This document shows, piece by piece, positions 3,404-39,210 of a stretch of DNA of 64,000 bases. Under the pieces are notes generated by a model. It was not told the DNA's origin and made no database searches. It worked only from the letters and a program-made list of their open reading frames with translations. Every line of letters begins with the position of its first letter. Position 1 is the stretch's first letter. A program made the translations under genes and the position numbers. The DNA comes from Escherichia phage JoYop, in the sequence record OR769032.1; one strand, written 5' to 3'.

Positions 3404-3784
3404 TCACTTAGTCAAATTTTTTACACATGAATTATAAGAATTCACCACATACTCCATCGGAGCATTTTTACCTGTACGCCATTGGTAATTATTAGCCCAA
3501 TTTGCCCAAAGTTCAGCGCAATAATTTTCAATTTTTTCTTCGTGTGTAATTACATCTGAATTACGATATGCTTGAGCAGATTCATCTGGGCGAATAGCTT
3601 CGTCAAAATTCGCCTGCATTTGTTCTACTGTCTGCTTTGGAGCTTCTTTATAACACTTGACATTAGGATTATAAAATTTGCTTGAGCAGTTTACAATTTT
3701 TCCTACATCAGATTGATTTACTACCGGTCCTTGAGCTACACAACCAGTAAGACCCAATGCAATAACCAAAATAGCGATTTTCAT
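3404..3784 (-). CDS. predicted lipoprotein, unknown function
   Basis: 126 aa; signal peptide with lipobox (ALGLTGC); several Cys; no T4 counterpart recalled at this position. Confidence 0.6.
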   Translation of the reverse strand: MKIAILVIALGLTGCVAQGPVVNQSDVGKIVNCSSKFYNPNVKCYKEAPKQTVEQMQANFDEAIRPDESAQAYRNSDVITHEEKIENYCAELWANWANNYQWRTGKNAPMEYVVNSYNSCVKNLTK

Positions 3785-19069: not shown

Positions 19070-19309
19070 TTAAGCCTTTTTATCAAGAACAGAATTCAGC
19101 TTATTAGTAATTTTATCCAGACGCGCATTGAACTCGCTAGAAGACAGTCCTTTTTCTGGAGAAATCAAACTAATCACGAAAAATATAACAATAAAAGGAA
19201 TAAGGAAAATAGCTCCAACTGCCATAAACAGAAAGAATGTTACAGTTGTAAGAAAATCAGCTAAACCTTTACGAAATTTATACATATTTACCCTTAATTG
19301 ATTAACCAA
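19070..19309 (-). CDS. small membrane protein
   Basis: 79 aa with one long hydrophobic helix. Confidence 0.5.
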   Translation of the reverse strand: MVNQLRVNMYKFRKGLADFLTTVTFFLFMAVGAIFLIPFIVIFFVISLISPEKGLSSSEFNARLDKITNKLNSVLDKKA

Positions 19310-28253: not shown

Positions 28254-28661
28254 TCACTCAATTTCAATTTTACTAAATACACAGAATATGATTGAACAGA
28301 CTACATAAGCACCACACACAGATTGAACTAATACCATCCCAAAGAACCAAACAATATTATCAAACAGTGTCTGTTTTACGTCGAAAGGACGTAAACTTAC
28401 AGTAATATTATCACCTTTTTCTATTGAAGAATACATCTCTGGGGAAATATATTCACTAAATCTATAACCGTCTTTGAGTTCATATACGGCAATAAACGAT
28501 AAACTAGACCCTTTTCCTTGTGTTCCTGTAATAGTATTAACTACAGTAACATCATAATCTTTATAATGCATATAATCATTAATAGCATAATAACCATATG
28601 CAACTACTATACATAAACAACATATCAATAAATTCAATCTTTTAATTATCAACTGTTTCAT
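28254..28661 (-). CDS. membrane protein
   Basis: 135 aa; N- and C-terminal hydrophobic helices. Confidence 0.55.
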   Translation of the reverse strand: MKQLIIKRLNLLICCLCIVVAYGYYAINDYMHYKDYDVTVVNTITGTQGKGSSLSFIAVYELKDGYRFSEYISPEMYSSIEKGDNITVSLRPFDVKQTLFDNIVWFFGMVLVQSVCGAYVVCSIIFCVFSKIEIE

Positions 28662-37142: not shown

Positions 37143-37351
37143 AACCATGTAACCTTTAAGCAATATTCTTCTACGTGTTGTTTACGACCTTTCTTATCAA
37201 TAAAAGTATATTCAACGAATGTTCCAATATAGTCTTTATCTACATCATGTGGACTATTAATTGGGCATTTAGTACGGCAAATGCGTTCCCATTGACGAAT
37301 AATTTCCACTTTGTTTTTAGGGTCAAATGGATGCGGGTAATGTGCTTTCAT
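37139..37351 (-). CDS. hypothetical protein
   Basis: 70-aa ORF. Confidence 0.45.
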   Translation of the reverse strand: MKAHYPHPFDPKNKVEIIRQWERICRTKCPINSPHDVDKDYIGTFVEYTFIDKKGRKQHVEEYCLKVTWL

Positions 37352-37802
37352 AATCTACCACTATTAAATCAATATCAGGAGTAAACATGTCGATTAATTT
37401 AGAAACCTTATCCCAATCACCGCCAGCAATACCACAACCTATACGTGGAATGTAAATTACCGGTTTAAACAAAAGGGTTTCTGCCTGCAGATTTAATTCT
37501 ATCATACAGTTTACTAAAGCACCATAATCAAGATTAGGACCTGGTTCATATTGCGTATACAGGTTGTAACATATGCCAAAACCATTAGGTTTATGTTTAA
37601 AAACTATAGACATATCACCGAGTTTTTCACGCGAACCATATTCAGTTGTAGTCTTATCTATTTCTAAAATTTTAGGATAAGCCCTTGCTAATTGACCAGC
37701 TACACCACTGCCCATCGTATGAAAACAGTTGCACCCGTGCGCAATAATATTACCTTCAAGAAAGAGGGCGACAATATCGCCCTTGATATATTTTACAATC
37801 AT
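37323..37802 (-). CDS. macro-domain-like protein (putative ADP-ribose binding or hydrolase)
   Basis: 159 aa; KGDIVALFLEGNIIAHGCNCFHTMGSGVAG and later IPRIGCGIAGGDW parallel the macro-domain GDIT...NAAN...GGGV and ...GxGxxG blocks. Confidence 0.5.
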   Translation of the reverse strand: MIVKYIKGDIVALFLEGNIIAHGCNCFHTMGSGVAGQLARAYPKILEIDKTTTEYGSREKLGDMSIVFKHKPNGFGICYNLYTQYEPGPNLDYGALVNCMIELNLQAETLLFKPVIYIPRIGCGIAGGDWDKVSKLIDMFTPDIDLIVVDYESTLPASI

Positions 37803-38146
37803 CTAGTACTCAATCCTCGATTATAAGAATCTACTAAACGGTCAACCATTGAACGACAAGCGGCTTTGTCTTTTTCCTCCGCAACTGAACATTCTAAGGT
37901 ATTCCACTTTTTAGCATATCGTTTTAATAATGTATCGTTTTTGTATCTACTTGTTTTATCTCTTTCTCCGTCTTTATATGCATATATTAATTTCTGCGCA
38001 AACTCAGATTGACATGCTTTATTTTTCCCACAATAATCTGCCGCAGTGCGGTTCACATACTCCCTAATTTCAGTATATGATGTATCTGCTGACGCATAAG
38101 CAGAAAATGAAATTAATCCTATACATAAAACCAAAATTTTAGTCAT
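37799..38146 (-). CDS. secreted cysteine-containing protein (T4 vs position)
   Basis: 115 aa; N-terminal signal peptide MTKILVLCIGLISFSAYASA; four Cys. Confidence 0.55.
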   Translation of the reverse strand: MTKILVLCIGLISFSAYASADTSYTEIREYVNRTAADYCGKNKACQSEFAQKLIYAYKDGERDKTSRYKNDTLLKRYAKKWNTLECSVAEEKDKAACRSMVDRLVDSYNRGLSTR

Positions 38147-38684
38147 TTACTATTTCCAAAAGTTTATTATTTTTAAGGTAATTAGCCTTTTCTAGGACTT
38201 CAGAAGCATATTTAGAACCTGCTTTAACATTCCATCCCGAATTATAAGAGGATATTGCTTTTCTTATATCGCCCTTATGTATATTTAACCAATAAGAAAG
38301 TTCAATGTACGCCCATGAAGCTGAATTGGATCGTTTATTCAACATTCTTTTTATTTCAGCATCGGTCATATTATAACCAAGTTCCTTAACTCTTGCTCTC
38401 ATAGTAGGCAAATAATTTTGGAACATTCCATAAGCGTGATGCTTTGGTTTAGATTTTAAATTAACTCCGCCAGAGCTTTCTTGCCATAAAATGGCTGCCA
38501 TTATATGACCTAATCCACTCTTATGAACATTTTGGTGTGTTTTATATTTTCCATCCTTAGAAAACTGTTCCCCGAATTGATACGCGTAACGCATGTTATC
38601 GAGTTGGACATTACTGAAAGTATGCTCGGAGCTATGTGCCATCATTGAAATGGCCAATAGACCAGCGAGTAGTGCTTTTCTCAT
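38139..38684 (-). CDS. secreted lytic-transglycosylase-like protein
   Basis: 181 aa; signal peptide; AAILWQESSGG resembles the SLT catalytic Glu-Ser block. Confidence 0.55.
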   Translation of the reverse strand: MRKALLAGLLAISMMAHSSEHTFSNVQLDNMRYAYQFGEQFSKDGKYKTHQNVHKSGLGHIMAAILWQESSGGVNLKSKPKHHAYGMFQNYLPTMRARVKELGYNMTDAEIKRMLNKRSNSASWAYIELSYWLNIHKGDIRKAISSYNSGWNVKAGSKYASEVLEKANYLKNNKLLEIVND

Positions 38685-38691
38685 GTTTGCC

Positions 38692-39153
38692 TCATTGAGT
38701 TTTAATTACTGCTTTAGAAGCCTTTCCTGGTAAACGACGACTGTTGATAATTGCCATCCTGCATTGAAGTGACGGGTCTTTGAACTTCTCATTAGGTTTA
38801 CAAACCGTAAATCCAAGCCAAAGATTTCCATCAGTGATTTCTAAACGTCCAGGGCGATATTCAATTCCATCGATAAAATCTTCATCAATATCAGGACGCG
38901 GAGGCATACTCAGGAATTCATTAACTTCTAAAACATGGTCTTTTATTTTATGGAATAATTCAAAAACATATGTCTCATCAATCTCCCGTTGAATTGCACG
39001 ATCAAGAAGATGCTGAGAATATTTTAGATGAAACGATGAGACCCCTGCTGCTTTTGATGCCTCACGAATCTCATTGTTAATTTGACGAAACTCCGACTCA
39101 AAGTGACGACGAAGCTTATTTCGACGGATAAAAACTTCTGTGTTGATAGTCAT
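38692..39153 (-). CDS. regB: RegB site-specific endoribonuclease
   Basis: 153 aa; matches T4 RegB in length and position; sequence consistent with recall. Confidence 0.85.
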   Translation of the reverse strand: MTINTEVFIRRNKLRRHFESEFRQINNEIREASKAAGVSSFHLKYSQHLLDRAIQREIDETYVFELFHKIKDHVLEVNEFLSMPPRPDIDEDFIDGIEYRPGRLEITDGNLWLGFTVCKPNEKFKDPSLQCRMAIINSRRLPGKASKAVIKTQ

Positions 39154-39179: not shown

Positions 39180-39210
39180 AATTATACCACAGTCAAGAGG
39201 AAAAGTAAAC
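39180..39210 (-). promoter_or_regulatory. T4-type early promoter upstream of regB
   Basis: GTTTAC 39205-39210 with tggtataat-like -10. Confidence 0.5.

What the first reader, a model, noticed from the sequence alone, without database searches (positions are those of the whole stretch)
37799..38684. Two secreted proteins next to regB, one transglycosylase-like
Both ORFs start with signal peptides. The 181-aa one has an AAILWQESSGG block like lytic transglycosylases, and the 115-aa one has four Cys. Envelope-targeted early proteins could act in superinfection exclusion or cell-wall remodelling.
Basis: partly seen in the sequence, partly recalled or inferred. Interest (0 to 1): 0.4.

Follow-up and report, generated by a model that had tools for sequence, protein, structure and literature searches.

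The report
T4 genes vs.1 and vs
These are the known phage T4 early genes vs.1 (a small cell-wall-cutting enzyme look-alike) and vs (labelled a modifier of the host valyl-tRNA synthetase); the one odd point is that Vs has every mark of a protein exported out of the cytoplasm, which fits poorly with its textbook label.

Summary
The window is a T4-like phage (Tequatrovirus, 98.6% identical to phage PaulHMueller). The two minus-strand ORFs are orthologues of T4 vs.1 (181 aa) and vs (115 aa, 96.5% identical to T4 Vs), lying between regB and tk.4. Both have Sec-type leaders. Vs.1 passes the Pfam SLT threshold, keeps the E-S, GMFQ and YNxG motifs invariant, and its model matches lytic transglycosylases. 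Vs has four invariant Cys, plus a fifth in the leader.

The SLT resemblance of vs.1 was published in 2006, so the finding is already known.

That label sits badly with the sequence:
- All 23 family members examined keep an export leader, and one has a lipoprotein box.
- The four Cys are invariant down to 27% identity.
- vs sat directly downstream of vs.1, usually start-stop coupled, in all ten loci sampled from T4-like genera and Acinetobacter phages.

My best reading is an exported envelope pair: a periplasmic lytic transglycosylase and a disulfide-stapled four-helix partner. Export, enzyme activity and any Vs–ValRS or Vs–Vs.1 contact remain untested.

The parts
39181..39209 (-). sigma-70-type promoter-like site (TTTACT-17-TATAAT, TG extended) upstream of regB; likely early promoter of the regB-vs.1-vs-tk.4 unit
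   Evidence: consensus scan only; the number of sites in the region is not above the shuffled expectation, so position is the only argument
38692..39153 (-). regB, site-specific RNA endonuclease (context gene, first of the unit)
   Evidence: Pfam REGB_T4 E=9.6e-69; phrog_1323
38139..38684 (-). vs.1: 181-aa SLT/GH23-like lytic transglycosylase candidate; SD GAGG 6 nt before the ATG
38631..38684 (-). codons 1-18 of vs.1: predicted Sec signal peptide (MRKALLAGLLAISMMAHS|SE)
   Evidence: leader kept in 29 aligned homologues although more variable than the mature part (37% vs 58% pairwise identity); pLDDT about 54 in the model
38478..38480 (-). codon of Glu69 in WQES, the presumed catalytic acid of the transglycosylase
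   Evidence: invariant in 29 homologues; coordinates read; assignment as catalytic residue inferred from the E-S motif of family 1 lytic transglycosylases (established knowledge)
38139..38146 (-). 8-nt overlap ATGACTAA: vs start codon overlaps the vs.1 stop codon (translational coupling; no SD of its own for vs)
   Evidence: 1-nt TAATG overlaps at the same junction in S16, Klebsiella 17-11, Acinetobacter MD-2021a and PG7; short gaps in vB_Eco_SAP, ECD7 and SP18
37799..38146 (-). vs: 115-aa protein annotated 'valyl-tRNA synthetase modifier'; predicted leader + four-helix bundle
38087..38146 (-). codons 1-20 of vs: predicted Sec signal peptide (MTKILVLCIGLISFSAYA|SA|D)
   Evidence: pLDDT below 50 over residues 1-20 while the rest is above 90
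37856..38032 (-). span holding the four invariant Cys codons of mature Vs: C39 (38030-38032), C45 (38012-38014), C86 (37889-37891), C97 (37856-37858); each pair brackets a helix-helix loop
   Evidence: invariance; helices 22-39, 43-63, 70-86, 91-112; disulfide pairing is inferred
37323..37802 (-). tk.4 macro-domain gene (context; start overlaps vs stop by ATGA)
   Evidence: Pfam Macro E=2.4e-8; junction; named AdfM, anti-DarTG2, in preprint 10.1101/2025.11.20.689424

Best explanation
The two ORFs are the T4 early genes vs.1 and vs. They are transcribed with regB and tk.4, and they are translationally coupled through an 8-nt stop/start overlap.

I propose that both products are exported by the Sec pathway and act in the periplasm of the infected cell.

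Vs.1 (mature form about 18.8 kDa) is a minimal family-1/GH23 lytic transglycosylase. It uses Glu69 to cleave MurNAc-GlcNAc bonds and so remodels the sacculus from early in infection.

Vs (mature form about 11.1 kDa, pI about 9) is a four-helix bundle. Two disulfides probably staple its helix-helix loops. It works in the same compartment as a partner or modulator of this murein-directed activity.

On this reading the database label 'valyl-tRNA synthetase modifier' does not describe the main in-vivo role of this ORF. That label could reflect a minor cytoplasmic pool, binding after cell breakage, or a historical mis-assignment.

Shown here: gene identity, SLT family membership by sequence and motifs, the predicted folds, the leader and Cys conservation, and the synteny.

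Inferred: export, disulfides, enzyme activity, any Vs-Vs.1 functional link, and the biological purpose.
For: Identity:
- 98.6% DNA identity to a Tequatrovirus.
- Vs is 96.5% identical to T4 Vs, and the gene order matches T4.

Vs.1:
- PF01464 scores above its gathering threshold.
- E69-S70, G86/F88/Q89 and Y147/N148/G150 are invariant in 29 homologues down to 41% identity.
- The model has pLDDT 88.8.
- Its best PDB fold matches are all lytic transglycosylases, at probability 0.97-1.0.

Export:
- Both ORFs have n-h-c leaders.
- All 23 Vs-family sequences examined have such a leader. One (P0096) has a lipobox, LSGC, instead.
- The leaders have low pLDDT in the models.
- The charge distribution around the Vs hydrophobic segment predicts N-in/C-out (sequence).

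Cys: four are invariant from T4 to Acinetobacter phages at 27% identity. Homology across that range was confirmed by hhalign, E=5e-13 and 3e-6.

Linkage:
- vs lies directly downstream of vs.1 in Tequatro-, Mosig-, Gapriver-, Krisch-, Karam-, Gelderland- and Jiaodavirus and in Acinetobacter phages.
- In some genera a third leader-bearing ORF follows.

Indirect support:
- N-terminally His-tagged full-length Vs was insoluble in E. coli (PMC8076793).
- In HIDEN-SEQ, vs is the most depleted T4 gene in minimal medium (log2FC -2.19). vs.1 moves the same way (-0.87, p=0.0055).
- Both genes carry roughly 10-fold fewer insertions than their neighbours in LB.
- Precedent: T4 Spackle is an early, leader-cleaved, disulfide-bonded helical periplasmic protein that binds a muramidase (PMC7677548).
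Against: - The long-standing annotation says Vs binds cytoplasmic ValRS. From memory, the classical genetics used host ts-ValRS phenotypes in vivo, which would require a cytoplasmic product. I could not read those papers.
- No signal-peptide predictor, localisation data or enzyme assay was available.
- Vs and Vs.1 are both basic (pI 9.0 and 9.6), which does not favour a tight electrostatic complex of the Spackle-gp5 kind.
- Vs.1 homologues occur without Vs in Kuttervirus, Felixounavirus, Slopekvirus, Tulanevirus and a Vibrio phage, so Vs is not needed for Vs.1 as such.
- The vs.1 depletion in minimal medium is not significant after correction (adj. p 0.155). It could also be a polar effect on vs.
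- Four clustered Cys could alternatively form a metal site.
- The fold matches of Vs.1 have modest scores (best E=4e-3, TM 0.46-0.54).
Confidence: 0.55

Rival explanations
1. The annotation is right as it stands. Vs is the roughly 10-kDa 'tau' polypeptide that binds host valyl-tRNA synthetase in the cytoplasm. Its hydrophobic N-terminus is not a working export signal, or only a fraction of the protein is exported. Vs.1 is merely a neighbouring gene with an unrelated envelope function.
For: Database labels in T4 and hundreds of relatives, and PHROG 1256. The literature statement that Vs binds ValRS and changes its properties (PMC8076793 citing Muller & Marchin). The vs knockout phenotype in minimal medium, which its authors read as a nutrient/translation effect. 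Vs is basic (pI 9.05), which suits binding to an acidic synthetase/tRNA complex.
Against: A leader is kept in 23 of 23 family members, including a lipobox variant. Four Cys are invariant without CxxC spacing. Coupling to an exported enzyme is conserved. The family has only eight 50%-identity clusters among 1.84 billion representatives and no cellular relatives. The mature size of 11.1 kDa, not the 13.2-kDa precursor, is the closer to the size I recall for tau, which would imply passage through the Sec pathway. How the ORF was assigned to the vs mutations could not be checked.
Confidence: 0.28
2. Two products come from one gene. The full-length 115-aa precursor is exported. Internal initiation at GTG codon 31 (preceded by AGGGAG) gives a leaderless 85-aa, roughly 10-kDa cytoplasmic form that is the ValRS modifier.
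For: GTG31 with a GGAG-containing Shine-Dalgarno-like sequence 3 nt upstream. Several database entries call an 85-aa Vs (BFVD A0A2S1GR10; P0092). An 85-aa product would match the roughly 10 kDa I recall for tau.
Against: Residue 31 is Thr or Ala in RB69-type and other homologues, so the internal start is not a family feature. The 3-nt spacer is short. The 85-aa entries may be gene-caller choices or fragments. There is no expression evidence.
Confidence: 0.07
3. Vs is a Spackle-like periplasmic inhibitor of a muramidase other than Vs.1 (incoming gp5 lysozyme, leaked endolysin, or host autolysins). It would contribute to superinfection exclusion or to resistance to lysis from without.
For: Vs is the same kind of protein as Spackle: early, with a leader, small, helical and Cys-stabilised. 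It sits next to a murein enzyme gene.
Confidence: 0.1

Closest known systems
Phage T4 Vs.1 (AAD42672, 'conserved hypothetical protein'; phrog_600)
   Same: Orthologue: same length, same position between regB and vs, about 97-99% identical to Tequatrovirus copies. Its marginal SLT match was reported by Nolan et al. 2006 (PMC1524935) and, according to that paper, earlier for T4.
   Different: Nothing of substance. No experimental function is on record in the literature I could search.
Phage T4 Vs, 'valyl-tRNA synthetase modifier' (AAD42671; phrog_1256; PF26829)
   Same: 96.5% identical, 115 aa, same neighbours.
   Different: The label implies a cytoplasmic ValRS-binding factor. The sequence family shows a conserved export leader, a lipobox variant and four invariant Cys.
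Family 1 lytic transglycosylases / Pfam SLT (PF01464), e.g. Slt70, MltD, MltE, LtgA (GH23)
   Same: HMM match above threshold. E-S, G-x-x-Q and Y-N-x-G motifs are in the right order. The predicted fold is alpha-helical and goose-lysozyme-like, with these enzymes as best structural matches. The location is periplasmic.
   Different: Much smaller: a single domain of 163 mature residues. It is soluble rather than lipid-anchored or multidomain. Motif II reads YGMFQ rather than GLMQ. Sequence similarity to any solved structure is below detection. It is phage-encoded and expressed early.
T4 Spackle (gp61.3), periplasmic inhibitor of gp5 lysozyme
   Same: An early T4 gene product with a cleaved localisation signal, a small compact helical bundle with a disulfide, acting on a murein hydrolase (PMC7677548). 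Vs shares all the general features.
   Different: No detectable sequence or fold relationship. Vs is basic. The target of Vs is unknown.
Secreted, non-virion phage transglycosylases such as Kayvirus Tgl, and specialised transglycosylases of secretion systems (VirB1/P19 type)
   Same: Small SLT-motif proteins with a signal peptide, exported by the host Sec system to act locally on murein (abstract of PMC7150955; the VirB1/P19 comparison is from established knowledge).
   Different: No close homology. Those act in lysis or in assembly of envelope-spanning machines. Nothing ties Vs.1 to either.

Membership tests
SLT / family 1 lytic transglycosylase (Pfam PF01464, GH23) | Profile match at or above Pfam's gathering score | tested here: met
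   25.0 bits vs cut-off 21.3, E=1.5e-5, residues 61-154 on HMM 16-101. About a quarter of the listed homologues carry a precomputed PF01464 hit.
SLT / family 1 lytic transglycosylase (Pfam PF01464, GH23) | Catalytic Glu in an E-S motif | tested here: met
   E69 is invariant and S70 nearly invariant in 29 homologues. The catalytic role itself is inferred.
SLT / family 1 lytic transglycosylase (Pfam PF01464, GH23) | Downstream motifs G-L-M-Q and A-Y-N-x-G in order | tested here: met
   YGMFQNY (G86, F88, Q89 invariant) and SYNSG/SYNAG (Y147, N148, G150 invariant). Motif II is a variant (MF for LM).
SLT / family 1 lytic transglycosylase (Pfam PF01464, GH23) | Goose-lysozyme-like alpha fold | tested here: met
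   Model pLDDT 88.8. The top Foldseek PDB matches are almost all lytic transglycosylases (a GH23 chitinase is interleaved) at prob 0.97-1.0, but with E only 4e-3 to 0.2 and TM 0.44-0.54.
SLT / family 1 lytic transglycosylase (Pfam PF01464, GH23) | Cleaves murein to give 1,6-anhydroMurNAc ends | not testable with these tools
   Needs purified mature protein and muropeptide analysis.
Sec-exported (type I signal peptide) periplasmic proteins | Positively charged n-region, 7-15-residue uncharged hydrophobic h-region, small residues at -3/-1 | tested here: met
   Both ORFs meet it. It holds in 23/23 Vs relatives and 29/29 aligned Vs.1 relatives. This was my own heuristic, not SignalP.
Sec-exported (type I signal peptide) periplasmic proteins | Actual cleavage and periplasmic location | not testable with these tools
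   Needs fractionation, PhoA or beta-lactamase fusions, or N-terminal mass spectrometry.
T4 Vs family (phrog_1256 / PF26829, 'valyl-tRNA synthetase modifier') | Sequence homology to T4 Vs | tested here: met
   96.5% identity over 115 aa; phrog_1256 E=5.4e-39.
T4 Vs family (phrog_1256 / PF26829, 'valyl-tRNA synthetase modifier') | Binds host ValRS and makes it urea-stable | not testable with these tools
   No complex prediction was possible (structure jobs exhausted). The primary papers are not held.
T4 Vs family (phrog_1256 / PF26829, 'valyl-tRNA synthetase modifier') | Cytoplasmic location, which the named function requires | tested here: inconclusive
   Sequence features predict export. There are no localisation data.
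Spackle-like periplasmic muramidase inhibitors | Fold or sequence relationship to Spackle | tested here: not met
LprI/DUF1311-type four-Cys helical lysozyme inhibitors (considered from memory) | Profile match to the family | tested here: not met
   No such Pfam hit for any of 11 Vs-family members at E<=10.

The most novel reading that the evidence does not exclude
The protein labelled 'valyl-tRNA synthetase modifier' in more than a thousand T4-like phage genomes would in fact be a Sec-exported, disulfide-bonded periplasmic protein. It would form a conserved two-gene envelope module with the Vs.1 lytic transglycosylase (three genes in some genera). The strong minimal-medium fitness defect of vs mutants would then be a cell-envelope phenotype. 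The classical ValRS modification would be a post-lysis association, a moonlighting activity of a minor leaderless form, or the product of a different gene.
Probability: 0.35. Interest if true: 0.65.

Novelty: already known. Interest (0 to 1): 0.38.

Why it matters
As a finding it is ordinary. Both genes are named T4 genes, and the transglycosylase resemblance of vs.1 is in print.

It matters in two smaller ways.

First, the function label of vs has been copied into well over a thousand phage records, often garbled to 'valyl-tRNA synthetase'. Vs.1 is often mislabelled 'RegB' or 'endoribonuclease'. Yet the sequence family looks exported, so the label may mislead.

Second, a 2025 transposon screen found vs to be the T4 gene most needed in minimal medium and called its role unknown. 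A periplasmic reading, paired with a cell-wall enzyme, gives that phenotype a concrete and cheap set of tests.

An early, exported phage transglycosylase would also add to the short list of T4 functions known to act on the envelope before lysis.

Tried and rejected
- Sequence searches of both proteins against PDB chains found nothing. A Vs.1 profile found only a goose-type lysozyme at E=0.41.
- NCBIfam and PADLOC gave no hits.
- The idea that Vs is an LprI/DUF1311-type inhibitor found no support.
- The idea that Vs is Spackle-like in fold found no support.
- Lipoprotein reading of the window's Vs is rejected. C8 sits in LVLC, which lacks the small residue required before the lipid-modified Cys, and C8 is not conserved.
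- SAR (signal-anchor-release) reading of the Vs.1 leader is rejected. The uncharged hydrophobic stretch is only about 13 residues and is followed by AxS/AxA-type sites in homologues.
- An exhaustive HMM search for cellular relatives of Vs found only eight phage-type clusters.
- A profile search for Vs.1 relatives found no source name outside T4-like phages, apart from one record named as Acinetobacter baumannii on a phage-sized (about 169 kb) contig. Most hits carry no source name.
- The third leader-bearing ORF seen in other genera has no counterpart in this window.
- Attempts to read the primary vs/tau papers and the 2003 T4 genome review failed because they are not held. Full-text searches found no functional study of Vs.1 and no modern study of Vs-ValRS binding.
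Full report
**What is there.** The region holds two minus-strand ORFs at exactly the coordinates given: 38139..38684 (181 aa) and 37799..38146 (115 aa). Upstream is a 153-aa ORF that is RegB (Pfam REGB_T4, E=9.6e-69). Downstream is a 159-aa macro-domain ORF.

The DNA is 98.6% identical to Escherichia phage PaulHMueller and 96-97% identical to many other Tequatrovirus genomes. [quoted passage not shown] The 115-aa protein is 96.5% identical to T4 Vs.

**Checking the observation.** The block AAILWQESSGG is present as Vs.1 residues 63-73. Both N-termini have a short positively charged start, an uncharged hydrophobic core of 11-13 residues, and small residues at plausible -3/-1 positions.

A crude rule of this kind passes only 6 of 137 ATG-ORFs of at least 60 aa in the whole window. 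The six include these two neighbours and RI, a known exported T4 protein. SignalP could not be run.

Vs has five Cys, not four. C8 lies in the leader and is not conserved. C39, C45, C86 and C97 lie in the mature part.

**Vs.1.** It matches Pfam SLT (PF01464) at 25.0 bits, above the gathering score of 21.3, with E=1.5e-5. PHROGs places it in phrog_600 (unknown function), with weak secondary hits to lytic tail proteins and endolysins.

In an alignment of 29 homologues down to 41% identity, several residues are invariant:
- E69 of WQES;
- G86, F88 and Q89 of YGMFQNY;
- Y147, N148 and G150 of SYNxG;
- Y159.

From established knowledge, these correspond in order to the E-S, G-L-M-Q and A-Y-N-x-G signature motifs of family 1 lytic transglycosylases.

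The AlphaFold model is confident (mean pLDDT 88.8) except over the leader. Its best Foldseek matches in the PDB are MltD, Slt, LtgA and Cj0843 lytic transglycosylases and related GH23 enzymes. Probability is 0.97-1.0, but E-values (from 4e-3) and TM-scores (0.44-0.54) are modest. Sequence-only searches of the PDB find nothing better than a goose-type lysozyme at E=0.41.

The leader is kept in every aligned homologue while being more variable than the mature part (37% against 58% pairwise identity). That is the usual behaviour of signal peptides.

The SLT similarity is not new. Nolan et al. 2006 reported it for six vs.1 orthologues and noted earlier PSI-BLAST matches for T4 vs.1 (PMC1524935). 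I found no experimental work on Vs.1.

Homologues occur in 2013 phage records. Beyond the T4-like phages these include Kuttervirus, Felixounavirus and a Vibrio phage. A profile search found no source name outside T4-like phages, apart from one record named as Acinetobacter baumannii on a phage-sized contig. Most hits carry no source name.

**Vs.** PHROGs assigns it to phrog_1256, 'valyl tRNA synthetase modifier' (E=5.4e-39). The local Pfam copy has no significant match, and precomputed tables list PF26829.

The model has a disordered residue 1-20 segment (pLDDT below 50). This is followed by a confident four-helix bundle with helices 22-39, 43-63, 70-86 and 91-112. C39/C45 and C86/C97 each bracket a helix-helix loop, which suits two loop-stapling disulfides. 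I could not measure distances, and a metal site is not excluded.

An exhaustive HMM search of 1.84 billion representative proteins found just eight clusters. The family is therefore small and phage-restricted.

**The comparative result that changes the picture.** I fetched Vs.1 loci from divergent phages. In Salmonella phage S16, Klebsiella phage 17-11, vB_Eco_SAP and an Acinetobacter T4-like phage, the gene directly downstream of vs.1 encodes a 103-119-aa protein. Each has a leader and four Cys spaced C-x5-C ... C-x8-C.

These align end to end with T4 Vs at 27-32% identity, with the four Cys invariant. hhalign confirms homology, with E=5.3e-13 and 3e-6. This second subfamily adds 407 phage records to the 795 found with the T4-type query.

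The order regB-vs.1-vs-(x)-tk.4 also holds in Krischvirus, Gaprivervirus and Karamvirus.

The vs start overlaps the vs.1 stop by 8 nt in the window, and vs has no Shine-Dalgarno sequence of its own. The overlap is 1 nt (TAATG) in S16, 17-11, the Acinetobacter phage and PG7. Short gaps separate the two genes in vB_Eco_SAP, ECD7 and SP18.

All 23 Vs-family sequences I examined have an n-h-c leader. One, P0096, has a lipoprotein box instead (MKKLFVLLIVFALSGC).

In S16, 17-11 and the Acinetobacter phage a third leader-bearing ORF (phrog_4957) follows vs. It has no counterpart in this window.

Vs.1 homologues without Vs exist in Tulanevirus, Slopekvirus, Kuttervirus, Felixounavirus and a Vibrio phage. 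I saw no Vs without Vs.1 in ten sampled loci.

**The conflict.** A leader conserved in character across this much divergence, a lipobox variant, four invariant Cys without CxxC spacing, N-in/C-out charge bias, and tight coupling to an exported enzyme all point to a periplasmic protein. The database function is a polypeptide that binds host valyl-tRNA synthetase, which needs the cytoplasm.

What I could read about that function is second-hand. [quoted passage not shown] It also reports that N-terminally His-tagged full-length Vs went to inclusion bodies (PMC8076793).

The HIDEN-SEQ preprint calls the role of the modification unknown. It shows vs to be the T4 gene most depleted in M9-glucose relative to LB, confirmed with a knockout (10.1101/2025.11.20.689424). 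Its Data S8 gives these figures:
- vs: log2FC -2.19, adjusted p 0;
- vs.1: log2FC -0.87, p 0.0055, adjusted p 0.155;
- mean LB insertion counts: 26.6 for vs and 22.6 for vs.1, against 652 for vs.3 and 290 for tk.4.

This is compatible with a shared role. It is equally compatible with polarity and with site-to-site variation in insertion.

From memory, and unverified here, tau was described as a polypeptide of about 10-11 kDa, and vs mutants were studied in hosts with a thermolabile ValRS. The computed masses are 13.2 kDa for the precursor, 11.1 kDa for residues 21-115, and about 10 kDa for residues 31-115.

The primary papers and the 2003 T4 genome review are not in the held library. I could therefore not establish how the vs mutations were tied to this ORF.

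**A possible reconciliation.** Codon 31 of vs is GTG, preceded by AGGGAG with a 3-nt spacer. Some database entries call an 85-aa Vs. A leaderless internal-start form could in principle be the cytoplasmic factor. However, residue 31 is Thr or Ala in other subgroups. At best this would be a T4-type peculiarity, and I rate it low.

**Most likely mechanism.** I commit to an exported pair, with about 0.55 confidence overall.
- Export of both proteins: about 0.85.
- Vs.1 being an active transglycosylase: about 0.65.
- The main in-vivo role of Vs being in the envelope: about 0.5.

Vs.1 would cut glycan strands of the sacculus from early in infection. Vs would act beside it as a modulator or partner.

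The purpose is open. One option is remodelling murein so that infection and later lysis succeed in slowly growing cells with a different wall, which would fit the minimal-medium phenotype. Another is control of autolysis.

Against a direct Vs-Vs.1 complex, both proteins are basic (pI 9.0 and 9.6), and Vs.1 works without Vs in other lineages.

The closest functional precedent is T4 Spackle, an early, leader-cleaved, disulfide-bonded helical periplasmic protein that inhibits the gp5 lysozyme (PMC7677548). Vs shows no detectable relationship to it.

**Verdict.** The features are already known genes, and the SLT resemblance is already published. I score interest at 0.38. The score reflects the unresolved and testable clash between the label of vs and its conserved export features, made timely by the new minimal-medium phenotype.

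Noticed in passing
window 37323-37802 (-): The gene after vs is the tk.4 macro-domain protein (Pfam Macro E=2.4e-8). The HIDEN-SEQ preprint names its T4 orthologue AdfM, an anti-DarTG2 factor. Its start overlaps the vs stop (ATGA).
   Followed up: partly
L003 2366-2767; L004 2363-2755; L007 2288-2713: In Salmonella phage S16, Klebsiella phage 17-11 and an Acinetobacter T4-like phage, a third leader-bearing ORF sits between vs and tk.4. It is 130-141 aa, has a leader ending ...NAWEKLPGYPE or similar, carries two conserved Cys, and belongs to phrog_4957 (unknown function). That makes three exported-looking proteins in a row. There is no counterpart in this window.
   Followed up: partly
window 38054-38056 (vs codon 31) and upstream: An in-frame GTG preceded by AGGGAG lies inside vs. 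Several public entries annotate an 85-aa 'Vs' that would start there. It is not conserved outside T4-type sequences.
   Followed up: partly
public records seen: Label drift. Vs is often annotated as 'valyl-tRNA synthetase' (the enzyme itself). Vs.1 homologues are annotated 'RegB', 'endoribonuclease' or 'site-specific RNA endonuclease' in several phage and UniRef entries, apparently copied from the neighbouring gene.
   Followed up: no
window 3404-3784 (-): A 126-aa ORF with a lipoprotein-type leader (MKIAILVIALGLTGC) and four further Cys; phrog_1754, unknown function.
   Followed up: partly
window 37765-37783 (both strands): An 8-bp GC-rich hairpin (AGGGCGATATTGTCGCCCT) lies about 20 nt inside the 5' end of tk.4, just downstream of the vs stop. 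The scan flagged it as terminator-like on both strands, but on the minus strand no T-run follows.
   Followed up: no
L015 1305-1626 (Enterobacter phage PG7): vs appears split in PG7. A 65-aa annotated 'valyl tRNA synthetase modifier' is followed by an unannotated stretch matching the C-terminal 40% of Vs. This is a possible frameshift, pseudogene or sequencing error.
   Followed up: no
window 28254-28661 (-) and 19070-19285 (-): Two further ORFs (135 and 71 aa) with hydrophobic N-terminal segments passed the crude signal-peptide rule. They look more like membrane anchors. They belong to phrog_2547 and phrog_1930, both of unknown function.
   Followed up: partly
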